Shown here piece by piece: positions 7,585-47,764 of a DNA stretch of 64,000 nucleotides. Origin of the DNA: an uncultured bacterium (GTDB lineage Bacteria; Pseudomonadota; Alphaproteobacteria; MED-G09); NCBI GenBank assembly GCA_964001285.1, contig CAXFAF010000006.1, positions 8,205-72,204 on the forward strand, read 5' to 3'. Under the pieces are notes generated by a model. It saw only the letters and a program-made list of their open reading frames with translations, was not told where the DNA came from and searched no databases. The translations under genes were made by a program, and so were the position numbers. Every line of letters starts with the position of its first letter. Position 1 is the first letter of the stretch.

Positions 7585-8889
7585 CTAATTTAGTATTTTA
7601 TCGTATTCTCTTTTCAAGAAATCATCATCTAATTTTGTGTATATTTGCGTAGTATCTATAGAGCTATGGCCAAGTAGTTTCTGAATTTTTCTAATGTTAA
7701 TACCATTCTGAAGAAGGTGGGATGCAAAACTATGTCTTAGGGAGTGAGGTGTAGCCTCTGAAGGAAGAGGGCCAGGATAAATTTCAATAAGTTTTTTCAT
7801 GCTTCTTTGAATGTCTCTTGTAGTTAAACTATCTTTTTTATTTGAAGAGATTTTTAAAAAGAGAGGATCATTATTATTTATATCTATTGTTTCTAAAGAT
7901 TTAAGATTTGATATGTACAAATTTATTTTTTGTTTAACTATTGGAAGAATAGGAATATATCTTTCTTTATTCCCTTTTCCAATTATTTTAATTTGATCTT
8001 CAAAAGGAAGATCTGAGAATGTAAATTGCAAAACTTCTGAAACTCTTAATCCAGTAGAATAGATAAAATATAGAACTGCTATATCTCTGCGATGCTGCCA
8101 AGAAGACCATTCTCTTAAGTTTGTGTTCTTGACATCTGGATCTATATATTTAAGGAAATCAATTAACTCCTCCTCCTTAAAGGTTTTGTTTGAAATTCTT
8201 GATTCATATTTACTTGTTATAATCTTTGTGAATGAATGATTTTTCCACTTATTTTTTTCGCTAAGATATTTGAAATAATTTCTTAACACTGACTGACAAC
8301 GAGCAAGACTTCTATTGCTTTTCTCTTTTTCTTTATATTTATTAACACAACCATTTTTGCTTAAAATTTCAATCTTCTTAGAAATATCTCCAAAATTGTT
8401 ATAAATTTCTTTACCTGAAATAATTTCACCCTTAAAAAAATTATCAAGATTATTAATTAAATCTATATTTTCTCTTTTTTTGAAGAAGTCTTTGTGGCCA
8501 GTAAGTAAGTTTGATGGTTTAGTTGTTTCAAAATAATAATAACCGTTTAACATTTCATCTTTTAGATTTTCGAAATTATTTGTTCTTCCAAGATAAAAAC
8601 TTTGATAAGAAAGGAAATCAATATCCTTAAAATGCTTAAGACTATTTAATGAAGGAGATTTTGCTAAGTAAATTTTACAAAATTTTAGGAAATGTGAAAT
8701 TGTTCTTGCATATTCATTTATAGTAAGCTGACTTCTATCCTTTGAAATTAAACTTCTAATATAATCCTTTGAAATTTTTTCAAGGTCTTTTTTTGCATAT
8801 GTAAAATTTGATGTTTTTGGAAAATGAAGTTTTTTAACCGCTTCTTGCATACTATAAGATTTTTTGGCCACTGTTTTCCCAATCATCAA
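7585..8889 (-). CDS. Tyrosine recombinase, XerC/XerD-like, with an extended N-terminus and an internal insertion
   Basis: The C-terminal catalytic domain carries the full R..K..HxxR..H..Y set ([40 protein letters not shown]). The N-terminal core-binding-like segment reads [15 protein letters not shown]. At 434 aa it is far longer than a typical Xer (~300 aa). An alternative start at 8850 would remove the 38-nt overlap with tal. Confidence 0.8.
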
Positions 8890-27625: not shown

Positions 27626-29014
27626 TTAAGTATTATTTTCGTTTAAATATTTATCTACCATTAGATGTAAATGTCTTGTTCTCGATTCTTGATAATTGCC
27701 TAAAGTTTGAGCACCCTTTGGACTAGCTTTAAAGCCCTTTGTTTGTGATAAAAGATTGTTTGTGTCTTGATCATATACAGCCCCTAAAAAACCAGTTCCT
27801 TCACATAAAGTATAACTATCATTTATATCCAAGTATTGAGGTTCCGGTGGTAGGGGATGATCTTCACCAGGAATTTTTGGTCGTAAAAATAAGAGATCAA
27901 ATATTGCATGATCTACTCCATCTGGTCTAAATCTATATACCATCGGTAATTGAAGCCCTGGAAAAAAGAAAGCATTAGGAAAAACAAAATATTCTATTGA
28001 ATCAATAGTTTCTGTAACGCTTAAGTGAGAAAAGTCAGATTTATATTTTTCACTCATTTCTTCTTGAACAATTCTTGCATAAACTTCTCTTGCAGTGCTT
28101 CCTTCGGGAACTTTTATTTCACCCGAATCATCATCGAGTCTTCTACCAAGAAGAATATCTAATATTCCTTGTTGGTCAGGTCGGTTATCAGTCACATGAG
28201 GGCTTGTATAGCCTATAGTATGAACAAAACGGGTGATATGATCACCAAAAATGTCATAATCTGCATTAGCATCACCTGCAGTCATAACGCCTTCAGAATG
28301 GGTTTCTAAAACATGATAAGCTTCTAGAAATGCTTCTGCAGAAGCCTTCCAGTTAGCTGGAAGCCTTTTAACTACATGTGTTTCTATATATCTATCTTCA
28401 AGATTCCAATTCTTAAAATGTTCAGGTAACACACCAAGATAATCATTTAAAGGTTTTGCATTTTGGTCAAAATTTACGAAAACAAAACCACCCCAAATAT
28501 CACATTTTAGCTCTGGCAAACTATATTCCTCTTTATTAACATGAGGAAAATCCCAATCGCACGGAAGAAATTCTAGTTTTCCAGAGAGTGACCATGTCCA
28601 GCCATGAAATGGGCATCTAAGTTCTTTGCATATTCCTGAAGTTCCTGAAGGTTTTAATTGCGTTCCCCTATGTAAACATGAATTATAATATGCCTTTATC
28701 TCATCTTTCTCAGATCTAACAATTATTGCTGAAAGATCACCTACATCATAAACATAATAGTCTCCAATTTCTGGAATATGATCAACATGGCAAGCCCACT
28801 GCCATACTCTTGACCACATATGGTCATTTTCTTTTTTTGCGAATTCTTCAGAGATATATCTTTCAAATGGTATGTCTGCATCGCTTATAAATTCATAAGA
28901 CTCTTCCAAAATAGGTGCTGGAGCCCCTGTGCAATCTCTACTTACCAATTCTTTGGTAGATGGATGATCAGGACATCTTGCTTCACCTGGTTTTAGATTT
29001 TTAAGTTCGCTCAT
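27626..29014 (-). CDS. Rieske [2Fe-2S] non-heme-iron oxygenase, alpha subunit (paralog 1)
   Basis: Rieske CLHRGTQL...CPFHGW and mononuclear-iron motif EAYHVLETH (Hx4H). 462 aa. First gene of a minus-strand operon. Confidence 0.88.
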   Translation of the reverse strand: MSELKNLKPGEARCPDHPSTKELVSRDCTGAPAPILEESYEFISDADIPFERYISEEFAKKENDHMWSRVWQWACHVDHIPEIGDYYVYDVGDLSAIIVRSEKDEIKAYYNSCLHRGTQLKPSGTSGICKELRCPFHGWTWSLSGKLEFLPCDWDFPHVNKEEYSLPELKCDIWGGFVFVNFDQNAKPLNDYLGVLPEHFKNWNLEDRYIETHVVKRLPANWKASAEAFLEAYHVLETHSEGVMTAGDANADYDIFGDHITRFVHTIGYTSPHVTDNRPDQQGILDILLGRRLDDDSGEIKVPEGSTAREVYARIVQEEMSEKYKSDFSHLSVTETIDSIEYFVFPNAFFFPGLQLPMVYRFRPDGVDHAIFDLLFLRPKIPGEDHPLPPEPQYLDINDSYTLCEGTGFLGAVYDQDTNNLLSQTKGFKASPKGAQTLGNYQESRTRHLHLMVDKYLNENNT

Positions 29015-32773: not shown

Positions 32774-34144
32774 GTGCCACAACGCTTTGATCATATAGAT
32801 TTTTCTGACCAAATAACGGCGGATCCTAAGCATAATGCTAAGTTATCTAGTGATAGATATACTTGTCCTGATTTTATGCAATTAGAATGGGAAAAGATTT
32901 GGACTCAGTGTTGGTTATTTGCAGGTTTGGAATCTGATATTCAAGATGTGGGTGAATTTTTTGTTTATGATATAGGAAGAGAGTCAATAATAGTTACTCG
33001 AAATGAGAACAACAAAATTTCTGCATTTTATAATAGTTGCCAACATAGAGGTAACAAGATTTTAACTCAAGAATCTGGTTGGGTTAAACAAGTATCTTGT
33101 CCCTACCATGGTTGGACCTATGGTTTAGATGGAGAGCTTAAGAAAGTTCCCGATGCAGAATTATTCGAAGATAATGTTTTATGCGAAGAAAATTCCTTGA
33201 AATCTGTTTGTGTAGAGACTTGGGCGGGTATGATTTTTATAAATATGAGTGAGAATCCAGCCTCTCTTAGAATTTTCTTAGGAAAAATCATGGATCAACT
33301 TGGTCCATATCATTTTGAGAATATGCAACTAGTAAAACATCAGAGTGTAACATTGGATACGAATTGGAAAACAGTAAGGGATAATTTTTTAGAACAATAT
33401 CATGTTGATTTCATTCACCCCCAGCATGCTAGTTTCGTTGATTGTTGTGATGCACAAAATTATCTATGGCCTTTCGGTCATACTCACACATGTGTTGAAA
33501 GTCCCGTAATGAATCCTCGATATCCCATGCCAGAAGAGCCACCTGAATACATGATTCAATATCTCAAAGGTTTGGAGCTTAATCCAGATGATTATCATGG
33601 TAAGGTTCCAGAAATTAGAAAGGTTATTCAAAAACAAAAAAGAGTAATTGGCAAAAAACTTGGTTTTGATTATTCGGAACTTTCCGATGAGCAGGTTTCC
33701 GATGTTTTTCAATATGATATTTTTCCAAATTTATTTATGACAATTCATGCTGAGAGGGTTTGGCTTTATGGCCCTAGACCCCACCTTTCGGATCCAAATA
33801 AATGCACTTTTACAAAATTTAGCTTAATGCTGCCGGAAGATAAAATTCGAGATGAAAAAAAGGGTTTAGAGCTCCTTCCTGGTTCTTATGATTATGAGTA
33901 TTCTGAAACAAGAGTAGAGCATGAAGTTTTTACAAGACAAGATGTAATAGAAGGACGAAATTCTATGACTGTTACTATAGACCAAGACATTCATTATCTT
34001 AATGATATGCAGGCAGGTATGCATTCCCGTGGTTTTGACAAAGCTATTTTAAGTGATGATGAAGAAAGATTACAGCATTTCCATAACTGGGTTGATAATT
34101 GGTTAAGTGACAATTCATCTTGGTCTAAAATAAGTCAATCATAA
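32774..34144 (+). CDS. Rieske non-heme-iron oxygenase alpha subunit (paralog 2)
   Basis: GTG start with GGGGGAAA upstream. Rieske CQHRGNKI...CPYHGW and Fe site EQYHVDFIHPQH. 456 aa. Confidence 0.85.
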   Translation: MPQRFDHIDFSDQITADPKHNAKLSSDRYTCPDFMQLEWEKIWTQCWLFAGLESDIQDVGEFFVYDIGRESIIVTRNENNKISAFYNSCQHRGNKILTQESGWVKQVSCPYHGWTYGLDGELKKVPDAELFEDNVLCEENSLKSVCVETWAGMIFINMSENPASLRIFLGKIMDQLGPYHFENMQLVKHQSVTLDTNWKTVRDNFLEQYHVDFIHPQHASFVDCCDAQNYLWPFGHTHTCVESPVMNPRYPMPEEPPEYMIQYLKGLELNPDDYHGKVPEIRKVIQKQKRVIGKKLGFDYSELSDEQVSDVFQYDIFPNLFMTIHAERVWLYGPRPHLSDPNKCTFTKFSLMLPEDKIRDEKKGLELLPGSYDYEYSETRVEHEVFTRQDVIEGRNSMTVTIDQDIHYLNDMQAGMHSRGFDKAILSDDEERLQHFHNWVDNWLSDNSSWSKISQS

Positions 34145-34161: not shown

Positions 34162-35559
34162 ATGAGTGATACGAAATTACCAAAAAAAACTTTGTTCTTC
34201 TATGGTCTTTCAGAGATGCCATTATCGATTGCTTCTCTTCCTTTGTTGGCTTTTATACCAAATTATTATGTATCAGATTTAGGGCTTGATTTTGCTGTTG
34301 TCGCATTAGTTATGCTTTTGGCTAGATCATTTGATGCCGTTACTGATCCCTTGATTGGGTATTTAAGTGATAGGACTGATACGCGATGGGGAAGAAGACG
34401 GATATGGATGTTTTTATCAATCCCTATTTTAATGATAGCGGCTTATAAAATATTTTTTCCTCAAAATCTTTGGGAATTTGTTCCTTTTAGTCTCGATTTT
34501 CTTTCTTTGAATTTAGGAGCAGGGGGTCACTATCTTTTGTTTTGGTTTTTAGTGCTTTGGTTTGGATGGAGTATGCTTTTTATTCCTTATTATTCTTGGG
34601 CTGCAGAATTATCTTCAGATTATAATGAAAGATCGACTATTGTTGGCTGGCGCATGTTTATTGGGACATTTGGTAATGCCATATCCAAATTTTTACCGGC
34701 TATTGCTTTGTTATTTTTTGCTTATGGGGGAGCCGAGGAGACTATTATAATTATTGGAGCTGTTTTTCTTTTGGTTATTCCAATTTGTATAAGTTTATCA
34801 ATTTTCAATGTCCCTGAGAGAATGGATTATCAGACCAAGCAGGGGTCTATTAAAGAAGGTCTAAAGGCTATGTGGAAGAACAAAGCCTTTAGGCAGTTAA
34901 TTTTTGCATACTTTTTTAATTATATAGGGGTAACTCTTTCAACTTTAACAGTTATGTTTTTTATTAGGGGTGTTACAGGAGAAGAAGAGCAAGGTATTCT
35001 TTATTTCATTTTTTACTATGTTGCTAATCTTATTGGAATTCCCTTTTGGCTTTGGCTTTCAAAAAAAATAGGAAAACATAATGCCTGGAAGATAGGCTTA
35101 GGTGTCTTCACAGTAATGCAGCCATGTTATTTTTTCCTGGGTCAGGGAGATTATTATTGGATGTTTCCAATTACTACAATTGCTGGTTTAGCAGGATCAA
35201 CATTTCATCTTATACCGCATGCCATGAAGGCAGATGTTATAGATTATGATACTTATCTTACTGGTGAAGATAGAGCAGCACAGTTTTTTGCCGCATGGTC
35301 ATTTATAACGAAAATGGCTATTGCTATTGCCCCATTTTTTGCCTTCACATATTTAGATTTAATAGGCTTTAACTCTACGCCCGGAGCAATAAATAGTCCG
35401 GAGCAAATACTGGGGTTAAAAATATTATTTTGTTTTGCCCTTCCGCTATTTCTAATAATCGCTATTTTGTGTGTTCGTGATTATCCTATTACACAAGCAA
35501 AACAAGAAGAGATTCGAAAAGAGATAGAAACTCAAAAAAAACAATTACAAGGAGTATAA
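34162..35559 (+). CDS. GPH-family (glycoside-pentoside-hexuronide:cation symporter, MelB-like) MFS transporter
   Basis: The N-terminal signature FYGLSEMPLSIASLP...DAVTDPLIGYLSDRTDTRWGRRR is diagnostic of GPH/MelB-type symporters. 12 TM. Confidence 0.85.
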   Translation: MSDTKLPKKTLFFYGLSEMPLSIASLPLLAFIPNYYVSDLGLDFAVVALVMLLARSFDAVTDPLIGYLSDRTDTRWGRRRIWMFLSIPILMIAAYKIFFPQNLWEFVPFSLDFLSLNLGAGGHYLLFWFLVLWFGWSMLFIPYYSWAAELSSDYNERSTIVGWRMFIGTFGNAISKFLPAIALLFFAYGGAEETIIIIGAVFLLVIPICISLSIFNVPERMDYQTKQGSIKEGLKAMWKNKAFRQLIFAYFFNYIGVTLSTLTVMFFIRGVTGEEEQGILYFIFYYVANLIGIPFWLWLSKKIGKHNAWKIGLGVFTVMQPCYFFLGQGDYYWMFPITTIAGLAGSTFHLIPHAMKADVIDYDTYLTGEDRAAQFFAAWSFITKMAIAIAPFFAFTYLDLIGFNSTPGAINSPEQILGLKILFCFALPLFLIIAILCVRDYPITQAKQEEIRKEIETQKKQLQGV

Positions 35560-35560
35560 A

Positions 35561-36082
35561 ATGAGCGACGCTTTAGAAAGAGTTATTGCAAAATCTGAAA
35601 TTTATGATCTTTCATGCAAATATATGAGAGGTCTAGATAGATTAGATATAGAATTGTTGAAATCTGTTTTTCATGATGGTGCTTGGTGCGATTATGGTTT
35701 TACAAAAAGTGATGCTCCAACATTTGCTCAATTCTGTATGGATGCACTCAAAGAACATCATGCTAATCATCATATGATTGGTAATGTTTTGATAGAATTC
35801 AGCGACAATAAAGATGAAGCTTTTGGTGAAGTCTATTTTCAGGCTTATCACAAAGTTGATGAAGACGGTCAAATGAATGATGTTTTTATTTCTGGACGAT
35901 ATCTTGATCGTTATGAAAAAAGAGATGGTATTTGGAAGATGGTATACAGATCTGAAATTGTAGATTGGTCACGAACTGAACCAACCCATGAACCATATTT
36001 TGATTCAGCTCCAGATTGTTTTCGAGGTGGTCGTCAAGATGATAGAGTTTATGATACTAAAGATAGATATAATCCAAATTAA
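35561..36082 (+). CDS. SnoaL_4 / NTF2-like domain protein (paralog A)
   Basis: 173 aa, with IYDLSCKYMRGLDRLDIELLKSVFHDGA (NTF2-like SnoaL_4 pattern). Paralogous to 44901..45434; C-terminal regions align (SGRYLDRYEKRDGIWK vs SGRYIDRFERRNGEWK). Confidence 0.75.
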   Translation: MSDALERVIAKSEIYDLSCKYMRGLDRLDIELLKSVFHDGAWCDYGFTKSDAPTFAQFCMDALKEHHANHHMIGNVLIEFSDNKDEAFGEVYFQAYHKVDEDGQMNDVFISGRYLDRYEKRDGIWKMVYRSEIVDWSRTEPTHEPYFDSAPDCFRGGRQDDRVYDTKDRYNPN

Positions 36083-38420: not shown

Positions 38421-38771
38421 TTAATCATCCGCAAATAATACTGTTCTCGGATTGCCTTCTTCATCATATACGGATTTATGCTTATCAATTAAATACATTT
38501 GATTTTCAGTTTCTCGTATACCAACAGAATTTAAAGCTTCCACCATTTCTAAATAGGTGTGGTGACTGAAATGGGCTATGAGAGAATCTTCATCTTTCCA
38601 AAGTTCATAAACTTGAATCCTATTTGGAACGCAAGGATCTGCTGCAAAACAATAACTAATGCAACCTTCTTCCTCCGTTCGTGTTGCCAGTTGAATATCG
38701 GCAGTTAATTCAATAGCCTTATCTCTGCCAGCTTCATTTTCAAAATCTAGGGTTGCTGAAATAATAATCAT
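38421..38771 (-). CDS. ABM / Dabb-like monooxygenase domain protein
   Basis: 116 aa ferredoxin-like fold, with ...RTEEEGCISYCFAAD...YELWKDEDSLIAHF. Confidence 0.7.
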   Translation of the reverse strand: MIIISATLDFENEAGRDKAIELTADIQLATRTEEEGCISYCFAADPCVPNRIQVYELWKDEDSLIAHFSHHTYLEMVEALNSVGIRETENQMYLIDKHKSVYDEEGNPRTVLFADD

Positions 38772-38780
38772 GTTTTTCTC

Positions 38781-40118
38781 CTATTCAAAGTAGCTTTCAA
38801 TCATTTCGTGAAATCTTCTTATTCGTTTTTCTTGTCCTGCAAAATATGCCCTGTCAAATCCTCTAGACCTGAGACCATGTTGTTGAAGAATAAATACTGC
38901 TGAATCTTGATCTATAGTTTGGCCAAGACTTTTTTCTCCGAGATCAAAGACTTCATGTTCAGCATATTCTCCTCTTTCTGAAATTCCTACAGTTGTTCTA
39001 ATTGGAGAAGTTTCATGTTCAGGGTTACTTGCATACCACCAATTGTCGAAGACACATTTCTCTGGGTCCGTTGGATGAGGTTTTGCTCTTAAAAAATGGA
39101 ATCCATCTGCCCACAATGAAACTGCAAAATTGGGAAAGAGGGTATAGTGAAAGGCGTCTGTTAATTGTTCATCTCTCAAATTTTTATAATGGGTATATCC
39201 TTTTTTTGGACCTATTTCTCTTTTAGCGATTTGTATGGCTACCCTTGTCTCTTGCCCTTTACCAGAGAAATCATCAGGATTAATTTCCCATTCCTTCATA
39301 ACTGAATTTAGAGGATCTTCTATTTGTCCATCTTCTTGCATAGATCCATACCCGGCTCGCATGATCATTCTGTTATGACCCTCTTCTGATAGGTCAAATT
39401 GTGTATTTTTATAGCTAGTATCAACGCCACTTGGCATTCTTCTTTTTGTTACAGCTCGCTCAGGGGCATGTACTGTTGGGAGATGATAAGATTCATTAAA
39501 ATTATCAAGAATTATTTTCCAATTACAAGGTACATTTACGGTTTGCGCAACATATCTTTTCCATTTATGAATTTCATAAGCTTCCCAATCTTTCCATACT
39601 GGACCTAACCATTCTTTTAATGAAGGCGCTTTTTCATGCATGTTAATCCAAATAAAACCTGCAAATGTTTCTGTTTTAACTTCTTTTAATTTAAGTTTTC
39701 CGCATGGATTTCCTTCAGGAAAATCTTCAGAGTCTTGTGCTTCAATAAGTTCGCCGTCTATTCTCCACTGCCAACCATGATAAGGACATTTGAAAGTTTC
39801 TGTTGATCCAAGATCGTTAAATGTCAATCTTGCTCCTCTGTGTTGGCAAACATTATAAAAAGTTTTTATTTTATTATTATCTTGGCGTATCATTAGGAAG
39901 CTTTCTCTTCCAAATTCTTCCATTTGGTAATCACCAGGTTCAGGAATTTGATCCTCTCTTCCTAAAAGTAACCAAACCTTTGGCCACATATGGGCCCATT
40001 CTTTTTCCATAAATTCTTTAGAATAATAGCGTGTTCCATCGACATCCAATCCTTTAAGATCAGGATTATCCCAAGAAGGACTTTCTTTTTTATACCAATC
40101 TAAATCAATTACATTCAT
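38781..40118 (-). CDS. Rieske non-heme-iron oxygenase alpha subunit (paralog 3)
   Basis: Rieske CQHRGARL...CPYHGW and Fe site DNFNESYHLPTVH. 445 aa. Confidence 0.88.
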   Translation of the reverse strand: MNVIDLDWYKKESPSWDNPDLKGLDVDGTRYYSKEFMEKEWAHMWPKVWLLLGREDQIPEPGDYQMEEFGRESFLMIRQDNNKIKTFYNVCQHRGARLTFNDLGSTETFKCPYHGWQWRIDGELIEAQDSEDFPEGNPCGKLKLKEVKTETFAGFIWINMHEKAPSLKEWLGPVWKDWEAYEIHKWKRYVAQTVNVPCNWKIILDNFNESYHLPTVHAPERAVTKRRMPSGVDTSYKNTQFDLSEEGHNRMIMRAGYGSMQEDGQIEDPLNSVMKEWEINPDDFSGKGQETRVAIQIAKREIGPKKGYTHYKNLRDEQLTDAFHYTLFPNFAVSLWADGFHFLRAKPHPTDPEKCVFDNWWYASNPEHETSPIRTTVGISERGEYAEHEVFDLGEKSLGQTIDQDSAVFILQQHGLRSRGFDRAYFAGQEKRIRRFHEMIESYFE

Positions 40119-41077: not shown

Positions 41078-42712
41078 ATGCAAAAACAATACGATGTTAT
41101 AATACTTGGCGCAGGTGCAAGCGGTATGGCTGCCGCTTTGGCAGTTCATGAAAATGGTTCATCGGTAGGGCTTTTTGAGAAACAGAATCTTGTTGGAGGT
41201 ACAACAGGAGTTTCTGGAGGAATTATTTGGGCCCCTATGAATAGTTATATGAAAGAAAAGGGTATAGCCGATGATAGACAAAAGGCTATAGACTACTTCA
41301 TGTCTTTATCTAACAATGATATAGACCCAAATCTACTTGAATCTTTTATAGATAACTGTTCAACAGCAATAGATTTTATAGAAGAAAAAACCGACGCAAG
41401 TTTTTATATATTAGATGGTTATCCTGATTATTATCTTGATAGACCTGGTGCTTTAGAAGGCGGAGGAAGAGCCTTAGATAATAATCTATTTGATTTTAGT
41501 AAACTTGGAAATTGGGCTGAGAAAGTTAGAGGTAACGGAAAACCAATTCCTATGACTCTTGGGGAAACACCTCTAGGTGGAGGAACAGGTATAGTAGAGG
41601 ATTCTATCATGGGAGAAAGAATTTCAAATGACTCACGAGGAATGGGTCAAGCATTAGTTGGGGCTCTTCTCAAAGGTTGTCTCGACAGAGGCATTGAACC
41701 CCAGCTTGGGATAAATACAAAAAAATTAATTAAAGAAGGAAATAGAATCATTGGTATTGAGATTGATAATAATGGTGAGGCTTTTGAAATCTACGCAAAT
41801 AGAGGTGTCATTATTGCTACTGGAGGCTTCGAATGGAACGAGAATTTAGTAAATAATTTCTTAAGAGGTCCCCTAAATGCTCCTGCGTCACCTCCAGGTA
41901 ATGATGGTGATGGATTAAAATTAACTCAAGAAGTAGGCGCTTCTTTAGGCAATATGACAAGCGCCTGGTGGTCGCCTGTTCTATCAATACCAGGTGATCA
42001 ATGGCCAGAAGGGGGACAAAGGTCAGCTCCAATTTTAATTGAAAGAACTTTACCTCATACAATTATGGTGAATCGATCAGGTAATAGATTTTGTAATGAA
42101 GCAACTAATTATTCTGCAATGGCCGGTGCTTTTCATTTTTTTGACCCCAATGAATATGGGTATCCAAATTTACCAGCATGGTTGATTTTTGATTCAAATT
42201 ATAGAGAAAAATATCCTTTTTCTAATATTATGCCAGGATCTAATGATCCCGAATGGTTTATTAGTTCTGAAAATATAAAGGAATTATCTGAGAAACTTGA
42301 AATAGATTCCAAATCTTTGAAAAATACAATCAAAGTTTTTAACAGTTATGTTGATAACGGTGAAGATCTTGAGTTTGGAAGAGGTAAAAGTGATTACGAT
42401 TCTTTTTATGGAGATAGAACCCAATCAGGTGTCTACACGACCTTAGGAAAAATAGATAAACCGCCCTTTTATGCGGTTAAATTAGATATTGGGGCTTTGG
42501 GAACTAATGGTGGAGCAAGAACTGATAAATTTGGTCGAGTAATTTCTGCCTCAGGAGAAATTATTGACGGTTTGTACACTGTGGGGAATGCTATGGCAGG
42601 TAGTACGGGTTCGGTTTATGCGGGAGCAGGTGGCACCTTGGGTCCAGCATTGACTTATGGTTATCTTGCTGGTTGTCATGCTGCAGGAAATAATTTTGCT
42701 GAAAAGGAGTAA
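41078..42712 (+). CDS. FAD-dependent oxidoreductase, 3-ketosteroid-delta1-dehydrogenase (KstD)-like / fumarate-reductase flavoprotein family
   Basis: N-terminal FAD motif DVIILGAGASGMAAAL, and C-terminal ...GLYTVGNAMAGSTGSVYAGAGGTLGPALTYGYLAG typical of KstD-like enzymes. 544 aa. Confidence 0.82.
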   Translation: MQKQYDVIILGAGASGMAAALAVHENGSSVGLFEKQNLVGGTTGVSGGIIWAPMNSYMKEKGIADDRQKAIDYFMSLSNNDIDPNLLESFIDNCSTAIDFIEEKTDASFYILDGYPDYYLDRPGALEGGGRALDNNLFDFSKLGNWAEKVRGNGKPIPMTLGETPLGGGTGIVEDSIMGERISNDSRGMGQALVGALLKGCLDRGIEPQLGINTKKLIKEGNRIIGIEIDNNGEAFEIYANRGVIIATGGFEWNENLVNNFLRGPLNAPASPPGNDGDGLKLTQEVGASLGNMTSAWWSPVLSIPGDQWPEGGQRSAPILIERTLPHTIMVNRSGNRFCNEATNYSAMAGAFHFFDPNEYGYPNLPAWLIFDSNYREKYPFSNIMPGSNDPEWFISSENIKELSEKLEIDSKSLKNTIKVFNSYVDNGEDLEFGRGKSDYDSFYGDRTQSGVYTTLGKIDKPPFYAVKLDIGALGTNGGARTDKFGRVISASGEIIDGLYTVGNAMAGSTGSVYAGAGGTLGPALTYGYLAGCHAAGNNFAEKE

Positions 42713-42714
42713 TT

Positions 42715-43623
42715 ATGGAAAAAGTTTTGGTTTATGGTGCAAGTGGCGATCAAGGAGTTCCTCTTGTTAATGCGTTAATTAAAAAGGGCTATAAAATTAG
42801 AGCTGCATCAAGATATCCAGAAAAATACAAAAGTGAAATTCAGGGAGATGTAGAGAGTGTAAAGGCTGATCTATTTGATGTTAATACACTTAAAGAAGCT
42901 TGTAGAGATGTTGATTGTATAGCTATGAATTTACCTTTTGTTTTTGATAGAGCGATTGCGAAACAATGGGGAGAAAATATAAATAATGCTGGAAAAGAAA
43001 TGGGTGTTAAGAAAATAGTTTTTAATACAAGTTGTTATGTTGCCCCTAATGATAATGGATTAGAAGCCCATGATGGAAGAAGAGAAATAGAGAAATCTAT
43101 GGAAGAAAGTGGTATGGATTTTGCTGTAATTAGATCGGTGGTTTTTATGGATAATCTATCAAGATTTTGGGCGAAACCTTCGATAGTTAATAGTAATATT
43201 TTTGCTTATCCTTGCAGCGAAACCCTTAAAATTTCTTGGATTTGTCTTGAAGATGTCGCAGCCTTTATGGTCGCAGCCTTATCAAAGAAAGATGTTAAAG
43301 CTGATAAAATTACTGTTGGCGGACCTGAAATATTATTGGGTTCTGAAGTTGCTGAGAAATTTACGAAAGCACTTGGTAGAGAAATAAATTTTCAGAGTTT
43401 AGAACCAAATAGTTTTGCAAGACAAATGAGCAAGTTAGTCACTGGGTCTGAAGAATATGAAAAACCATCCATCTATGGTGGGATGGCAGCTTTTTATAGA
43501 TGGTATAATGAACAAGACCCTTCACCCTTAGCAATTGAAATGGATGAGTTGTATGATAAATTTTCTATAACTCCAACTTATTTTGAGGACTGGATTAAAA
43601 AGCATGATTGGGATAATATCTAA
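42715..43623 (+). CDS. NmrA-like NAD(P)-binding protein (atypical SDR)
   Basis: N-terminal Rossmann VLVYGASGDQGVPLVNALIKKGYKIRAASR. 302 aa, with a 3-nt gap to the upstream gene. Confidence 0.78.
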   Translation: MEKVLVYGASGDQGVPLVNALIKKGYKIRAASRYPEKYKSEIQGDVESVKADLFDVNTLKEACRDVDCIAMNLPFVFDRAIAKQWGENINNAGKEMGVKKIVFNTSCYVAPNDNGLEAHDGRREIEKSMEESGMDFAVIRSVVFMDNLSRFWAKPSIVNSNIFAYPCSETLKISWICLEDVAAFMVAALSKKDVKADKITVGGPEILLGSEVAEKFTKALGREINFQSLEPNSFARQMSKLVTGSEEYEKPSIYGGMAAFYRWYNEQDPSPLAIEMDELYDKFSITPTYFEDWIKKHDWDNI

Positions 43624-43646
43624 TAAGAGGTTTTTAAAATTATGTA

Positions 43647-44891
43647 ATGTCTGACAGTAATATTGAAAAATACAGTTTTTTAGATCCGCTTATTAATAGC
43701 GACCCTTTTGAGTTTTACGAAATGCTTCATAAAGAGCAACCTGTATATAAAATTCCTGAGGTCGGAATTTATATGCTTACAAAATATGATGATATTAGGA
43801 TGGCTCTTAAAGATTTTGAAACATTTTCAAACGATGTCAGTGTAGCGACCCGAGGTGAATTTTCATCGTTACATCAAAATATTCTTACTGATGGTGGAGG
43901 CTGGGAGCATGTTCAGACTCTTCAAAGAACTGATCCTCCTGTTCATAGAAGGTATAGAAAACTTGTCGATAGGGTATTTACTAAGAAAAGAGTAGATGAA
44001 TTATTACCTCATCTCGACGAAGTTGTTAACGAGCTAATTGATAATTTTATTGAAAGTGGAACTTGTGACTTCAATGATGAGTTTGCTATGCGTATGCCTG
44101 GTATCATAATAGCCGAGCAACTTGGTTTATCGAGAGACAATGTTGCTACTTTTAAAAAATGGGCTGACTCAATGTTAGGTGCAAGTAGGGCGCCCATCGC
44201 GACTGAAGAGGAAGTAACTGCAAATGCAAAGATTGAGCTTGAAGCCCAACTTTTTTTGGCTGATGTATTTGAAGATAGAAGAAAAAATCCAAAAGAAGAT
44301 TTGATGTCGGCAATGGTTCACGCTCACGGTGATGATGAAGAGCCTTTATCTATGCATGAACTTCAAAATTTAATGCATCAATTAATTACTGGTGGATATG
44401 AAACAACTCAAAGCGCTATTAATCACGGAATGTGGGCTCTTATAAGATTTCCAGATATTGTAGAAAAACTCTATGAGGATGACTCACTTCTAAAACCTTT
44501 TATTGAGGAGGTTTTAAGATGGGAAAGTCCAGTTCAATTCCTTTTAAGAAGGACGCAAAAAGATGTAGAAGTATCAGGGACAACAATACCTAAGGACTCA
44601 ATGGTCATGATGGGATATGGACCGGCTAATAGAGACGAAAGCAAATTTTCATGCCCTCATCAGTTTCAATTAGATAGAGAAGGTGTTGGTGCGCATGTAG
44701 CTTTTGGTTCAGGCGCGCATCATTGTCCAGGTGCTCTATTAGGCAGACAAGAAATGATTCGTTCTTTCAAATTTCTTATAAAAAGAATGAAAAATATAAA
44801 ACTAGCTAAACCCCTTCAAGAGCCTGTTCACAATTTCAGTTTGTTTTTTATGCCTATGAAGGAATTTTTTATAACTTTTGATAAGCGTTAA
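43647..44891 (+). CDS. Cytochrome P450
   Basis: Heme-thiolate loop FGSGAHHCPGALLG, I-helix ITGGYETT, an ExxR motif and PERF-like regions. 414 aa. Confidence 0.92.
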   Translation: MSDSNIEKYSFLDPLINSDPFEFYEMLHKEQPVYKIPEVGIYMLTKYDDIRMALKDFETFSNDVSVATRGEFSSLHQNILTDGGGWEHVQTLQRTDPPVHRRYRKLVDRVFTKKRVDELLPHLDEVVNELIDNFIESGTCDFNDEFAMRMPGIIIAEQLGLSRDNVATFKKWADSMLGASRAPIATEEEVTANAKIELEAQLFLADVFEDRRKNPKEDLMSAMVHAHGDDEEPLSMHELQNLMHQLITGGYETTQSAINHGMWALIRFPDIVEKLYEDDSLLKPFIEEVLRWESPVQFLLRRTQKDVEVSGTTIPKDSMVMMGYGPANRDESKFSCPHQFQLDREGVGAHVAFGSGAHHCPGALLGRQEMIRSFKFLIKRMKNIKLAKPLQEPVHNFSLFFMPMKEFFITFDKR

Positions 44892-44900
44892 CTAATTTTC

Positions 44901-45434
44901 CTATCTTTGGTATGCGGGATCTTGACGACTTCTACTTGCAGAAGGTCCCGGTGCTTCTAGTTGGCCTTTTTCATTAGCAGGTTCAAATCTGATCCAATCA
45001 TGAACACCCTGTCGTTTAGCTATTTTCCATTCACCATTTCTTCTTTCGAAGCGATCAATATATCTTCCACTAACGAAAACATCCTCATCAATGCTTGTGT
45101 CATGCTCAGCTAAAAAACCCATATCAGATTCTTTACCTTTGGCGATTCTATGATATGCGGTCCAATAAGCTTCAGACCATGCAATATCACCATCTACTTC
45201 AATAAGAAGATTTCCAACAAGATGTTGGGTAAATTCCATTTCAGCTAATATGTCGAAGGCAAAGTTACAGAAATCTGATGATGGACCCTCATATTCTCCA
45301 TGATGATGAATTGAGTCTTCATGGAATACGGATTCTAAAAGTTCCCGATCCATTCTGTCTATTGCTCTGCAGTATCTATATACCACATCTGCTATTTCAA
45401 TCTTATCTGCAGCTATTTCCAATTTTTTATTCAT
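44901..45434 (-). CDS. SnoaL_4 / NTF2-like domain protein (paralog B); positioned like an oxygenase beta subunit
   Basis: 177 aa, with IADVVYRYCRAIDRMDRELLESVFHEDS. Begins 16 nt downstream of Rieske alpha paralog 4 on the same strand. Confidence 0.75.
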   Translation of the reverse strand: MNKKLEIAADKIEIADVVYRYCRAIDRMDRELLESVFHEDSIHHHGEYEGPSSDFCNFAFDILAEMEFTQHLVGNLLIEVDGDIAWSEAYWTAYHRIAKGKESDMGFLAEHDTSIDEDVFVSGRYIDRFERRNGEWKIAKRQGVHDWIRFEPANEKGQLEAPGPSASRSRQDPAYQR

Positions 45435-45450
45435 TATATACCTTCAAAAC

Positions 45451-46797
45451 TTATTCATTTTCTTCGTTAAAAAGGTATCGATCAATATTTTCATGAAAAA
45501 ATCTTATTCTATTTTCTTGAGCCGGCATATAATCGCCTATGTAACCTCTTGAGCTCAAACCTTTTTGTTGACTGGTCCATATTGCAACATCTTCAGAAAT
45601 TCCATCTCCTACATCTACTTCAGAGTGATGCCCCTTTAGATGAGGAATTTTTGTATTTATAGCTGTTTTCTTTTTCAGCATATGTGAATAATATTCATCA
45701 ACTCCTTTTGGAAATAAAGTTAGATACCAATAGTCAAAATAACATTTTGTTGGATCAGTAGGGTGGGGTGTTCCTCTAAGCCATTGCATTCCATCTGGTT
45801 TTACACTGAATGACATATTTGGAAAAATTGTATAATGGTGATGATCTGTTAATTGGGTATCTGTAAACTTACTAAAGTCATAACCTTTTTCTTTATCAAG
45901 TTTCCTTTTTTGCTTTTGCAAATCGTTTCTTATTTCAAGAAGCCTACCTTTATAATCATTTGCATCCATATCCCAATACTCAATTGCCGGAGAAATAGCC
46001 TCTAAAACTTTTTTTTCATCATCATAAACACTTTTACTAGGAATAAATCCAGGCATAAGCATTCTTGCATGCATACTTTCATACATATCGAATTGACAAG
46101 AGTAATATTTTTCATCTGAGAAATATTTTAAGGCAGGATGAACATAAGGAGTATGATATGATTCATTGAAATTATCCTGTACACATTTCCAGTTCCAATC
46201 ACCTTCAACAGTAACCCAATGTGTTCTTATCATTTCCGATATGGGATAGTTTTCTAGTTGATCCATTACTGGATGTAAATATTCTTTTAAAGTTTTTGCG
46301 TTAGGGTCTAGATTAAAAAAAATAAATCCTTCCCAAATCTCTGATTTAATTTCAATTAAATTTCTTTTACCGCAAGGAGAGCCTTGAGGAAAATCCTCTT
46401 CATCAGGAACCCATTCAAGGTTTCCGTCCAGGCCAAATTTCCAGGCGTGATAAGCGCATGAAAAACTATCTAAGTTGCCTTCATCAACCTGAACTAATTT
46501 ATTTCCTCTATGTTGGCATACATTATAGAAGCATCTAATTTTAGAATCTTCACCTTTTGCACATAAAATTGACTCACGACCAAAATCATATGTAAAGAAG
46601 TCACCAGGATTTTCGAGTTGCTGTTCTAAACCAGCAACTTGCCAAACTTTTGTAAAAAGTTTTTCCCACTCTAAATCCATAAATTCTTTCGATGTATACC
46701 TTTCTCCGAGAATAGGTTTATTGCCTAACTTTGGTTCAGGTGCTTTGACTGTATCACCACCAAAGAAAGAATCAGATTTTGATAAAATTTTATCCAT
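45451..46797 (-). CDS. Rieske non-heme-iron oxygenase alpha subunit (paralog 4)
   Basis: Rieske CQHRGNKL...CAYHAW (variant second box) and Fe site DNFNESYHTPYVH. 448 aa. Confidence 0.86.
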   Translation of the reverse strand: MDKILSKSDSFFGGDTVKAPEPKLGNKPILGERYTSKEFMDLEWEKLFTKVWQVAGLEQQLENPGDFFTYDFGRESILCAKGEDSKIRCFYNVCQHRGNKLVQVDEGNLDSFSCAYHAWKFGLDGNLEWVPDEEDFPQGSPCGKRNLIEIKSEIWEGFIFFNLDPNAKTLKEYLHPVMDQLENYPISEMIRTHWVTVEGDWNWKCVQDNFNESYHTPYVHPALKYFSDEKYYSCQFDMYESMHARMLMPGFIPSKSVYDDEKKVLEAISPAIEYWDMDANDYKGRLLEIRNDLQKQKRKLDKEKGYDFSKFTDTQLTDHHHYTIFPNMSFSVKPDGMQWLRGTPHPTDPTKCYFDYWYLTLFPKGVDEYYSHMLKKKTAINTKIPHLKGHHSEVDVGDGISEDVAIWTSQQKGLSSRGYIGDYMPAQENRIRFFHENIDRYLFNEENE

Positions 46798-46867: not shown

Positions 46868-47764
46868 TTATTTTGTGTTGGTTAGAGCAATAGGGTTTTC
46901 AGACATTGAATTTAAATATGCTATAAGATTGGCTCTATCCTTATCTTTTCTAAGTCCAACAAATGCCATAGAGTTACCCGGCGCAAATTTCTTTGGACTT
47001 TTTAACCATAAATTCATTTCGTCTATTGACCAATTACCCCCTAAAGTTTTAAGGGCCTCTGAATATTTAAATCCTGAAATTTCAGCCTTACTTTTTCCCA
47101 AAATACTCCATAGATTAGGCCCTATTCTATTGCTTCCGCCTGCATTGAAACCATGGCAAGCCGAACATTTTGAGGAAACTTTTTTTCCTGCATCAATTGA
47201 TGCAATTGCAAGTAATTCTTCAAATGATAATTTGGGCTTTTCTTTTACGGGTTGTTTTACTTCCGTTTCAATATTAGCTTCAGCTATTTCAGTAATTCCT
47301 TGAGCGCCATATGAAGATCTTATCGTCTTTAAAAGATTAAGTTTCTTTTCGATGATTATCACTTTTTTATCAATATTATCTCTATTCAATATCCTATGAG
47401 ATTTCCCAGTTAGTAAAAAATTTAAATCATTTTCTACTGCAATAATCTTATTATCTAATTCATTGACACTAACAACGCTTTTAAAATGTTTTACAAATCT
47501 TTCCTGTTTTTTTATTTTTTTCTTAAGCTCTTCTCTTCTAAGAACAGTGTGATTAAGGTTTTTTTGATTATTTGGTTGAGATTCTATTGAAAAATAACTT
47601 TCATCAATAAAATCTACATTCGCCAGTAATTCTTCTGAAGATGGAGGGTCAATTGATTCAACAAAGAACAATTTATTTCCCGTTCTTATAATTCCAGAAA
47701 CGATTAATAATGTGAAAAGTACAGCAAAGAATCCTTTTATTATTGTATTTGCATTTAAATTCAT
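46868..47764 (-). CDS. cycM: Membrane-anchored class I cytochrome c (CycM-like)
   Basis: N-terminal TM helix, about 150 aa of charged linker, then a mitochondrial-type cytochrome c domain with heme site CSACH and GPNLWSILG...YS.AL...W..DEM..WL..PKKF.PG.SMAF.GL...DR.NLIAYL (Met ligand). Confidence 0.88.
   Translation of the reverse strand: MNLNANTIIKGFFAVLFTLLIVSGIIRTGNKLFFVESIDPPSSEELLANVDFIDESYFSIESQPNNQKNLNHTVLRREELKKKIKKQERFVKHFKSVVSVNELDNKIIAVENDLNFLLTGKSHRILNRDNIDKKVIIIEKKLNLLKTIRSSYGAQGITEIAEANIETEVKQPVKEKPKLSFEELLAIASIDAGKKVSSKCSACHGFNAGGSNRIGPNLWSILGKSKAEISGFKYSEALKTLGGNWSIDEMNLWLKSPKKFAPGNSMAFVGLRKDKDRANLIAYLNSMSENPIALTNTK

What the first reader, a model, noticed from the sequence alone, without database searches (positions are those of the whole stretch)
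44901..46797. Rieske alpha gene followed 16 nt later by a SnoaL_4/NTF2-like gene: a possible cryptic oxygenase beta subunit (second copy at 35561-36082)
Ring-hydroxylating oxygenase beta subunits have an NTF2-like fold and are encoded immediately downstream of alpha. Here a 177-aa NTF2-like protein (SnoaL_4 pattern IADVVYRYCRAIDRMDRELLESVFHEDS) sits exactly in that position after paralog 4. A clear paralog (173 aa) ends the Rieske(paralog 2)-GPH-NTF2 operon. Both share a C-terminal block (SGRY[IL]DR[FY]E[KR]R[DN]G.WK). They may be divergent beta subunits, or small-molecule-binding partners or isomerases (SnoaL-type) of the oxygenases.
Basis: inference. Interest (0 to 1): 0.55.

Follow-up and report, generated by a model that had tools for sequence, protein, structure and literature searches.

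The report
Dehydratase-like partner of Rieske oxygenases
The small gene that follows the Rieske oxygenase gene is real, but it is not a hidden oxygenase beta subunit: it looks like a free-standing LinA/BaiE-type (dehydratase-like) enzyme that often, but not always, travels with beta-less Rieske oxygenases in breakdown pathways.

Summary
A 448-aa Rieske alpha gene (45451-46797, minus strand) is followed after 16 nt by a 177-aa SnoaL_4 gene (44901-45434). A 37%-identical paralog (35561-36082) ends a Rieske-GPH transporter-SnoaL_4 operon.

The cryptic beta subunit reading is not supported.
- Both proteins score far above threshold for SnoaL_4 and below threshold for Ring_hydroxyl_B.
- A family profile matches LinA (hhalign 97%) and BaiE (93%) but not naphthalene dioxygenase beta (0.17%).
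- The AlphaFold model (pLDDT 94) is closest to LinA, BaiE and scytalone-dehydratase-like structures. Beta subunits rank 46th or lower.
- The catalytic Asp-His dyad and the BaiE tyrosines are conserved, whether or not an alpha gene is nearby.
- In 60 of 80 species no alpha lies within 6 kb, and covalent two- and three-domain fusions exist.
- The alpha family has no canonical beta and most resembles the beta-less oxygenases CntA and Stc2.

Rieske genes are still the commonest neighbour (15 of 79), in variable positions.

Best reading: a self-sufficient acid/base enzyme, probably an eliminase or dehydratase, that processes oxygenated ring intermediates in an alicyclic/aromatic catabolic island of an OCS116-type marine alphaproteobacterium. 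It is a new member of a known kind, of modest interest.

The parts
45451..46797 (-). Rieske oxygenase alpha subunit, paralog 4 (448 aa)
   Evidence: PF00355 and PF00848. Rieske Cys/His and Fe His/His/Asp positions are invariant. The AF2 model has pLDDT 90.4 and is closest to the beta-less CntA, Stc2 and 3n0q.
45435..45450 (-). 16-nt intergenic spacer with GAAGG ribosome-binding-like motif 6 nt before the ATG
   Evidence: Read directly from the sequence. No promoter or terminator signal above shuffled background.
44901..45434 (-). SnoaL_4 / NTF2-fold protein, copy 1 (177 aa). Predicted LinA/BaiE-type acid/base enzyme with Y21, D26, H71, Y125 and a conserved C-terminal tail (D172, Y175)
32774..34144 (+). 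Rieske oxygenase alpha subunit, paralog 2 (456 aa), first gene of the alpha-GPH-SnoaL_4 operon
   Evidence: PF00355 and PF00848. The same gene order is found at an 81%-identical alpha in L112.
34162..35559 (+). GPH/MFS_2 cation symporter between alpha 2 and SnoaL_4 copy 2
   Evidence: PF13347 at 7.9e-80. TIGR00792 at 3.1e-54, below its cutoff.
35561..36082 (+). SnoaL_4 / NTF2-fold protein, copy 2 (173 aa). Starts 1 nt after the transporter stop and keeps Y, D, H, Y at the catalytic positions
   Evidence: SnoaL_4 80.8 bits. 37% identical to copy 1. Residue check.
38781..40118 (-). Rieske alpha paralog 3 (445 aa), 40% identical to paralog 4, with no adjacent SnoaL_4 gene. It is followed by an ABM-like ORF (38421-38771), Amidohydro_2 and Amidohydro_1
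   Evidence: Relatives at 75-77% identity (L107, L111) do have a SnoaL_4 gene 4 nt downstream.
27626..29014 (-). Rieske alpha paralog 1 (462 aa), followed by SDR, dienelactone hydrolase, MBL hydrolase and MFS genes. No SnoaL_4 neighbour
41078..44891 (+). Neighbouring catabolic genes convergent on SnoaL_4 copy 1: a KstD/ChcC1-like FAD desaturase (41078-42712), an NmrA-like reductase (42715-43623) and a cytochrome P450 (43647-44891)
   Evidence: Pfam. NCBIfam best hits are 4-oxocyclohexanecarboxylate 2-dehydrogenase and 3-ketosteroid-delta-1-dehydrogenase, both below cutoff.

Best explanation
The 177-aa and 173-aa proteins are free-standing, cytosolic SnoaL_4 enzymes of the LinA / BaiE / scytalone-dehydratase type. 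They are not oxygenase subunits.

Each most likely forms a homotrimer of cone-shaped alpha+beta barrels. Inside the barrel, an Asp-His dyad (D26-H71) acts as the base, and one or two tyrosines (Y21, Y125) polarise a carbonyl or protonate the leaving group.

The most likely reaction is a 1,2- or vinylogous elimination on an oxygenated six-membered ring. This would be a dehydration, or loss of another leaving group. The substrate would be an intermediate that the co-encoded beta-less Rieske oxygenase has hydroxylated. The island's short-chain dehydrogenases and KstD-like flavin desaturase would first convert that intermediate into a ketone or enone. This parallels the BaiA - BaiCD - BaiE logic of bile-acid dehydroxylation.

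Shown here: the fold, the family assignment, conservation of the catalytic residues, the facultative but enriched linkage to Rieske genes, and the absence of any canonical beta in this alpha family.

Inferred: the trimeric state, the elimination chemistry, the order of steps and the substrate.
For: Family and sequence:
- SnoaL_4 scores 75.8 and 80.8 bits against a cutoff of 24.
- A family profile searched against PDB sequences finds Rv3472 (4e-13), 3b8l, LinA (1.6e-8), a putative scytalone dehydratase and BaiE (2.6e-5). These rank ahead of any full-length beta subunit.
- hhalign gives LinA 97% (E 7.7e-11) and BaiE 93% (E 3.4e-7).

Structure:
- The AF2 model has pLDDT 94.3.

Catalytic residues:
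- D26 and H71 align with LinA D25 and H73. Y21, D26, H71 and Y125 align with BaiE Y30, D35, H83 and Y126.
- The roles of these residues are taken from PMC3507683 and PMC11110704.
- H71, E88, W136, R141 and D172 are invariant or nearly so in 80 species. They are equally conserved in the 60 loci without an alpha and the 14 with an adjacent alpha.

Independence from alpha:
- Two- and three-domain tandem fusions of this same subfamily exist, and each repeat keeps the motifs.
- A VOC-SnoaL_4 fusion follows an alpha gene in L122.

Precedent and context:
- Aerobic NTF2-type ring dehydratases are known, namely Hsh2 and SteC.
- The island encodes a KstD/ChcC1-like desaturase, SDRs and a P450.
Against: - No activity, substrate or oligomeric state was measured.
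- The closest solved relative, Rv3472, has no known function.
- The NTF2 fold supports many chemistries (isomerase, epoxide hydrolase/cyclase, aldolase, decarboxylase, lyase). A conserved Asp and His do not prove elimination.
- Several other invariant charged residues (R27, D29, E88, R124, D127, R132) have no counterpart in the LinA or BaiE mechanisms and are unexplained.
- The two peptide patterns used to fetch the 80 species loci force conservation of Y21-D29 and R124-R132. For those positions only the less biased alignment A1 counts.
- Within the closest lineage the alpha-then-SnoaL_4 order with a short spacer is strictly kept. A physical complex is therefore not excluded.
Confidence: 0.6

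Rival explanations
1. Cryptic beta subunit. The SnoaL_4 protein forms the beta3 stem of an alpha3beta3 Rieske oxygenase and has a mainly structural role.
For: - The gene sits 16 nt downstream of alpha with an RBS-like motif.
- This order is kept in all close relatives: L008-L013, L015-L018, L021, L050, L095 and L096.
- Beta subunits share the NTF2 fold.
- There are weak C-terminal matches to Ring_hydroxyl_B, AndAd and HcaF and to 3eby.
- No canonical beta is encoded near any of these alphas.
Against: - PF00866 is below threshold, and hhalign to NDO beta gives probability 0.17%.
- 60 of 80 species have no alpha within 6 kb.
- A 71%-identical homolog sits next to a fatty-acid desaturase, and a 54%-identical one next to an OYE-type flavoprotein.
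- The position relative to alpha varies: downstream, upstream, divergent, behind a transporter, or fused to a VOC domain.
- Two neighbours are KshA-type Rieske genes. From general knowledge, that type works without a beta.
- Alphas 1 and 3 in the window, and alpha-4-like genes in other genomes, lack the neighbour entirely.
- The alpha model is closest to the beta-less CntA and Stc2.
- Catalytic-type residues are conserved independently of alpha.
Confidence: 0.07
2. The same fold and pocket but a different chemistry. This could be an isomerase (ketosteroid-isomerase-like double-bond shift) or an epoxide-opening hydrolase/cyclase acting on a reactive product of the Rieske oxygenase. MupZ does this after the Rieske oxygenase MupW in mupirocin biosynthesis.
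For: - A Rieske oxygenase plus a small second enzyme acting in sequence is an established pairing: MupW/MupZ and TmlW/TmlZ.
- The extra invariant Arg/Asp/Glu residues (R27, D29, E88, R124, D127, R132) are not needed by a LinA-type mechanism. They recall the Asp-Arg-Asp arrangement of limonene epoxide hydrolase (own knowledge, not tested).
Against: - Sequence and structure are clearly closer to LinA, BaiE and scytalone dehydratase than to KSI, LEH or MupZ-type proteins.
- The BaiE Tyr/Asp/His/Tyr set maps one-to-one.
- MupZ did not appear among the listed matches.
Confidence: 0.2
3. A non-catalytic ligand-binding NTF2 protein. It would be a carrier or chaperone that delivers a hydrophobic substrate to the oxygenase, or sequesters its product.
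For: - Many NTF2-like proteins are non-enzymatic binders.
- The second copy is translationally coupled to a transporter gene.
- The neighbours across species are very diverse.
Against: - The protein is intracellular, with no signal-peptide-like N terminus.
- It has about 20 invariant polar or aromatic residues, including the exact catalytic set of BaiE and LinA. notes that intracellular NTF2 proteins with conserved polar pocket residues tend to be enzymes.
Confidence: 0.1

Closest known systems
Ring-hydroxylating oxygenase beta subunits (Pfam PF00866; e.g. NahAd, BphA2, BenB, TPADO beta)
   Same: NTF2-like cone fold. About 170 aa. The gene lies directly downstream of a Rieske alpha gene in this window and its closest relatives.
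   Different: - Below the PF00866 threshold, with no profile similarity to NDO beta.
- Structurally more distant than the dehydratases.
- Linkage to alpha is facultative and variable in position.
- Keeps a catalytic-type Asp-His-Tyr pocket.
- Occurs as covalent two- or three-domain fusions and as stand-alone genes far from any alpha.
LinA (gamma-hexachlorocyclohexane dehydrochlorinase; PDB 3A76, 3S5C, 5KVB)
   Different: Only 17-24% identity. LinA lacks the Tyr21 equivalent (Lys20 there). It also lacks the RYCRAIDRxD and C-terminal RxRxDPxY signatures. The substrate here is unlikely to be an organochlorine.
BaiE, and the aerobic Hsh2 and SteC steroid-ring dehydratases
   Same: SnoaL_4/NTF2 enzymes that eliminate a ring hydroxyl next to a (vinylogous) ketone. 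BaiE Y30, D35, H83 and Y126 map onto Y21, D26, H71 and Y125. BaiE is trimeric. These enzymes work alongside an SDR and a flavin desaturase, and both of those types are encoded in this island.
   Different: About 17% identity to BaiE. There is no evidence that the substrate here is a steroid. Hsh2 and SteC sequences were not compared directly. BaiE residues D106 and R146 were not mapped.
Rv3472 of Mycobacterium tuberculosis (PDB 2CHC)
   Same: Closest solved sequence relative (profile E 4e-13, about 25% identity). It is a SnoaL_4 protein solved with three chains.
   Different: Its function is unknown, so it adds no mechanistic information. The Asn aligned with D26 in the solved chain is the engineered D26N mutation named in the 2CHC entry title (Rv3472(D26N)), so the native protein keeps the Asp.
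MupW/MupZ (and TmlW/TmlZ)
   Same: A Rieske non-haem oxygenase and a small second enzyme are encoded together, and the second processes the oxygenase's product.
   Different: That pair belongs to biosynthetic polyketide clusters and performs epoxide-opening cyclisation with Glu54/Tyr41 catalysis. No detectable sequence relationship was found here.

Membership tests
Ring-hydroxylating oxygenase beta subunit (PF00866) | Scores above the Pfam gathering threshold for Ring_hydroxyl_B | tested here: not met
   13.2 bits (copy 1) and 15.5 bits (copy 2) against a cutoff of 27. Only the C-terminal strands match. NCBIfam AndAd and HcaF hits score 17-20 bits against cutoffs of 145-230.
Ring-hydroxylating oxygenase beta subunit (PF00866) | Detectable homology to a canonical beta subunit and closest structural similarity to beta subunits | tested here: not met
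Ring-hydroxylating oxygenase beta subunit (PF00866) | Gene invariably paired with, and directly downstream of, an alpha gene across homologs | tested here: not met
   Of 80 species loci, 14 have an alpha within 400 nt and 60 have none within 6 kb. The immediate upstream neighbour is a Rieske gene in 15 of 79. The position varies.
Ring-hydroxylating oxygenase beta subunit (PF00866) | Partner alpha belongs to an alpha3beta3-type lineage | tested here: inconclusive
   The best PDB sequence hit is CntA, narrowly ahead of BphA1. The alpha model is closest to CntA, Stc2 and 3n0q, which are beta-less from general knowledge, but the margins are small. No PF00866 gene was seen next to alpha homologs.
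Ring-hydroxylating oxygenase beta subunit (PF00866) | Forms a stoichiometric alpha3beta3 complex | not testable with these tools
   The structure tool predicts single chains only and reports no interface scores.
SnoaL_4 (PF13577), NTF2-like clan | Scores above the gathering threshold and adopts the alpha+beta cone fold | tested here: met
LinA / BaiE / scytalone-dehydratase-type eliminases | Asp-His catalytic dyad at the equivalent helix-1 and strand-3 positions | tested here: met
   D26 and H71 align with LinA D25 and H73 and with BaiE D35 and H83. Both are at least 90% conserved in A1. H71 is 80 of 80 in species loci. Residue roles come from PMC3507683 and PMC11110704.
LinA / BaiE / scytalone-dehydratase-type eliminases | Tyrosine general acid(s) as in BaiE (Y30, Y126) | tested here: met
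   Y21 and Y125 align with BaiE Y30 and Y126. The BaiE numbering was verified against PDB chain 4L8P. Both residues are conserved in copy 2.
LinA / BaiE / scytalone-dehydratase-type eliminases | Homotrimeric assembly | tested here: inconclusive
   Not directly testable. Indirect support comes from many three-domain (about 520-550 aa) and two-domain fusions of this subfamily and from frequent tandem gene pairs.
LinA / BaiE / scytalone-dehydratase-type eliminases | Catalyses elimination of water or HX from a six-membered ring | not testable with these tools
   Requires enzyme assays. The substrate is unknown.
Rieske oxygenase plus small processing enzyme pair (MupW/MupZ type) | Co-encoded Rieske oxygenase and small second enzyme acting on consecutive steps | tested here: inconclusive
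   Co-encoding and enrichment are shown. Consecutive action was not tested, and no sequence similarity to MupZ was seen.

The most novel reading that the evidence does not exclude
The SnoaL_4 trimer docks with matching three-fold symmetry onto the beta-less alpha3 oxygenase. It would act as a catalytically active surrogate for beta3 and take an unstable hydroxylated product straight from the oxygenase. This would be a living intermediate in the evolution of inert beta subunits from trimeric dehydratase-like enzymes.
Probability: 0.07. Interest if true: 0.75.

Novelty: new member of a known kind. Interest (0 to 1): 0.3.

Why it matters
It corrects a tempting annotation. An NTF2-fold gene downstream of a Rieske alpha gene is not automatically a beta subunit.

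It defines a large, sharply conserved and uncharacterised SnoaL_4 subfamily. The profile search finds about 1,900 clusters at 50% identity with E <= 1e-30. The family signature is RYCRAIDRxD ... H ... GRYIDRFERRxGEWKIA ... DPxY, and its commonest genomic partner is a beta-less Rieske oxygenase.

If the elimination chemistry is right, hydroxylation followed by dehydration would be a recurring two-enzyme module for desaturating or aromatising ring compounds. It would occur in abundant marine alphaproteobacteria (OCS116/PS1) and in soil sphingomonads, Burkholderiaceae and actinomycetes.

The substrates are unknown, and the finding does not by itself open a long-standing question.

Tried and rejected
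- A genome-collection scan with the full 52-sequence alignment failed for lack of a conserved stretch. It worked with an 11-sequence subset.
- Literature searches for SnoaL + Rieske + NTF2 found nothing. SnoaL + Rieske gave only incidental co-mentions apart from MupW/MupZ.
- The NTF2-superfamily survey paper says nothing about SnoaL_4 or beta subunits.
- Hsh3 turned out not to be an NTF2 protein, although the same paper confirms that Hsh2 is.
- Promoter and terminator scans around the pair were no better than shuffled sequence.
- The AlphaFold-database fold library was not available.
- A fused alpha-linker-SnoaL_4 prediction was considered and dropped.
- LinA R129 as a third conserved catalytic residue was considered and dropped, because LinA type 2 carries R129L.
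- A clean split was considered, with alphas paired with SDRs making catechols and alphas paired with SnoaL_4 making phenols. It was dropped because alpha-3-like genes in other genomes are followed directly by SnoaL_4 (L107, L111).
Full report
**1. Observation**

The gene pair exists as described. On the minus strand a 448-aa ORF (45451-46797) is followed after 16 nt by a 177-aa ORF (44901-45434). The spacer reads gttttGAAGGtatata-ATG, so it holds a ribosome-binding-like motif 6 nt before the start.

Pfam assigns the large protein to Rieske plus Ring_hydroxyl_A. It assigns the small one to SnoaL_4 at 75.8 bits against a cutoff of 24.

The second copy (35561-36082, plus strand, 173 aa) scores 80.8 bits for SnoaL_4 and is 37% identical to the first (E 8e-35). 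It starts 1 nt after the stop of a GPH/MFS_2 symporter gene, which in turn follows a second Rieske alpha gene.

The window holds four Rieske alpha paralogs, 27-40% identical to each other, all with intact Rieske and mononuclear-iron ligands. Two of them have no SnoaL_4 neighbour.

The organism is an OCS116/PS1-type marine alphaproteobacterium. The best genome match is an OCS116 cluster single-cell genome at 93% identity, and GC content is about 33%.

**2. Is it a beta subunit?**

Every test that could be run says no.

- *HMM scores.* Ring_hydroxyl_B scores 13.2 and 15.5 bits against a cutoff of 27 and covers only the C-terminal strands.
- *Profile against PDB sequences.* A 52-sequence family profile finds Rv3472 (4e-13), 3b8l, LinA (1.6e-8), a putative scytalone dehydratase and BaiE. 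Beta subunits appear only as partial or weak matches: 3eby at 5.7e-6 over the C-terminal half, and TPADO beta at 0.005.
- *Profile-profile comparison.* hhalign gives 97% probability for LinA, 93% for BaiE and 0.17% for naphthalene dioxygenase beta. The BaiE and NDO-beta sequences were verified against PDB chains.

**3. Catalytic signature**

D26 and H71 align with the LinA dyad D25/H73 and with BaiE D35/H83. Y21 and Y125 align with BaiE Y30 and Y126. The roles of these residues are described in PMC3507683 and PMC11110704.

The family carries about 20 invariant or near-invariant polar and aromatic positions and a conserved C-terminal tail (R.R.DP.Y) beyond the barrel. LinA has a comparable tail that reaches the neighbouring protomer.

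Across 80 species loci, H71, E88, W136, R141 and D172 are invariant or nearly so. They are just as conserved in the 60 loci with no Rieske alpha within 6 kb as in the 14 with an adjacent alpha. These positions lie outside the peptide patterns used for retrieval.

One caveat applies. Positions 21-29 and 124-132 were part of those retrieval patterns, so only alignment A1 speaks for them.

**4. Linkage to Rieske genes from the SnoaL_4 side**

Close relatives (73-93% identity) keep alpha then SnoaL_4 even where the downstream genes differ: a P450 in one lineage, ABM-Amidohydro_2-Amidohydro_1 in another.

Other homologs are not linked. A 71%-identical homolog stands next to a fatty-acid desaturase. 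A 54%-identical one stands next to an OYE-type flavoprotein in a 4.6-Mb genome. A 51%-identical one is divergent from an alpha and sits among other SnoaL_4 genes.

In 80 species-representative loci, the immediate upstream neighbour is a Rieske protein in 15 of 79. Thirteen of those carry Ring_hydroxyl_A and two carry KshA_C. This is the top family, ahead of acyl-CoA dehydrogenases (6) and CoA ligases (4). Downstream neighbours are GFO/IDH/MocA oxidoreductases, MFS transporters, TonB receptors and P450s.

The linkage is therefore strongly enriched but facultative.

**5. Linkage from the alpha side**

In 80 metagenomic loci holding alpha homologs, the presence of a SnoaL_4-family gene depends on how close the alpha is to the window paralogs:

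| Alpha identity to a window paralog | Loci | SnoaL_4 gene within 4 kb | Position |
|---|---|---|---|
| >= 70% | 6 | 6 | 4 directly downstream |
| 40-70% | 13 | 6 | 2 downstream, 1 upstream on the same strand, 1 divergent, 2 further away |
| < 40% | 19 | 3 | none adjacent |

SnoaL_4 is the commonest downstream neighbour, at 7 of 69. Ring_hydroxyl_B does not appear in the listed families or among ten small downstream ORFs checked individually. Those ORFs are Rieske ferredoxins, a VOC protein, ABM, an SDR and a VOC-SnoaL_4 fusion.

Alpha-4-like genes at 55-59% identity occur in three arrangements: alone, followed by a Rieske ferredoxin, or with a divergent SnoaL_4 gene.

The alpha-4 model (pLDDT 90.4) is closest to CntA, Stc2 and 3n0q. 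From general knowledge these are beta-less alpha3 enzymes. They rank ahead of BphA1, NDO and TPADO, though by small margins (sequence search). This alpha family therefore works without a canonical beta and does not need the SnoaL_4 protein.

**6. Independent architecture**

An exhaustive profile search finds 1,930 clusters (50% identity) at E <= 1e-30 and 7,016 at E <= 1e-10.

Many of the top hits contain two or three tandem copies of this same domain in one chain. By my count, roughly 30 of the best 150 have three matched stretches and roughly 50 have two. Ranking by total score favours such proteins, so these counts are not a frequency estimate.

The sequences show that each repeat keeps the family motifs. 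Tandem gene pairs are also common.

Covalent three-domain proteins fit a trimeric, self-sufficient enzyme like LinA, BaiE and scytalone dehydratase. They do not fit a subunit whose role depends on an alpha.

**7. Context and proposed mechanism**

The pair lies at the edge of a catabolic island of about 23 kb (24.1-46.8 kb), flanked by housekeeping genes. The island contains:

- four Rieske alphas
- a P450
- a flavoprotein whose best NCBIfam matches are 4-oxocyclohexanecarboxylate 2-dehydrogenase and 3-ketosteroid delta-1-dehydrogenase, both below cutoff
- two SDRs, one resembling hydroxycyclohexanecarboxylate and 7-alpha-hydroxysteroid dehydrogenases
- an NmrA-like reductase
- two ABM-like proteins
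- Amidohydro_1 and Amidohydro_2
- a dienelactone hydrolase
- two MBL hydrolases
- a TonB receptor and two transporters

No ferredoxin or reductase gene was found in the island.

The combination of SDR, ring desaturase and SnoaL_4 mirrors the BaiA-BaiCD-BaiE logic. Aerobic bacteria also use NTF2-type ring dehydratases, namely Hsh2 and SteC.

I therefore infer the following order of steps:

1. The oxygenase (or the P450) installs a ring hydroxyl.
2. The dehydrogenase and desaturase create an activating ketone or enone.
3. The SnoaL_4 enzyme uses H71 (tuned by D26) as base, with Y21 and Y125 as acid, to eliminate water.

The substrate is unknown. An isomerase or epoxide-opening role remains a real alternative. 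MupZ plays such a role after the Rieske oxygenase MupW.

**8. Verdict**

This is a new, uncharacterised member of a known enzyme kind, with a recurrent but non-obligate association with beta-less Rieske oxygenases. A physical complex in the closest lineage cannot be excluded without multimer modelling or biochemistry, and I give it about 7%.

Noticed in passing
P0191-P0262; sequences of P0191, P0192, P0193, P0194, P0196 (three domains) and P0200, P0203, P0205 (two domains): Many database proteins are covalent two- or three-fold tandem repeats of exactly this SnoaL_4 subfamily domain (about 350 and about 520-550 aa). Each repeat keeps the RYxRxxDRxD / H / GxRYxDRFERRxGxW / DPxY motifs. They look like single-chain pseudo-dimers and pseudo-trimers.
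   Followed up: partly
L122 1985-3007: A single ORF fuses a Glyoxalase/VOC domain to a SnoaL_4 domain directly after an alpha-1-like Rieske gene. In L124 a stand-alone VOC gene holds the same position.
   Followed up: partly
window 24100-46800: A catabolic island of about 23 kb holds four Rieske alpha paralogs but no ferredoxin or reductase gene. The electron-transfer partners must be encoded elsewhere. In related contigs a small Rieske ferredoxin follows the alpha (L097, L099, L176).
   Followed up: partly
window 38421-38771 (-): A 116-aa ORF lies between alpha 3 and Amidohydro_2. It is probably an ABM-family protein. This is judged from position and size only, by comparison with the ORF in L104 that Pfam calls ABM. 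The window ORF itself was not scanned.
   Followed up: no
window 41078-42712 (+): A 544-aa FAD protein has its best NCBIfam matches to 4-oxocyclohexanecarboxylate 2-dehydrogenase (ChcC1) and 3-ketosteroid delta-1-dehydrogenase, all below the curated cutoffs. This suggests an alicyclic-ketone desaturase and hints that the island handles alicyclic rather than purely aromatic substrates.
   Followed up: partly
window 38781-40118 versus L107 1025-2905 and L111 884-2863: Alpha-3-like genes at 75-77% identity in other marine contigs are followed 4 nt later by a SnoaL_4 gene. The window's alpha 3 is followed by the ABM-like ORF instead. In PS1/MED-G09 relatives (L012, L013, L017, L018) the alpha-4-like plus SnoaL_4 pair sits directly upstream of ABM-Amidohydro_2-Amidohydro_1. 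The modules of this island are reshuffled between lineages.
   Followed up: partly
window 46868-47764 (-): A 298-aa protein with an N-terminal hydrophobic segment and a C-terminal cytochrome c domain lies 70 nt upstream of alpha 4 on the same strand. It is conserved in that position in relatives (L008-L011). Whether it is co-transcribed with, or functionally linked to, the oxygenase is unknown.
   Followed up: no
window 7585-8889 (-): A phage-integrase-family tyrosine recombinase gene (434 aa, TTG start) sits between the TCA-cycle genes (sdhAB, mdh, sucCD, lpd) and a transaldolase gene.
   Followed up: no
L014 (150-kb contig): A related contig has the same genes broken into many short ORFs, probably from frameshift-rich long-read assembly. 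There the ortholog of SnoaL_4 copy 2 follows an SDR gene rather than Rieske-GPH.
   Followed up: no
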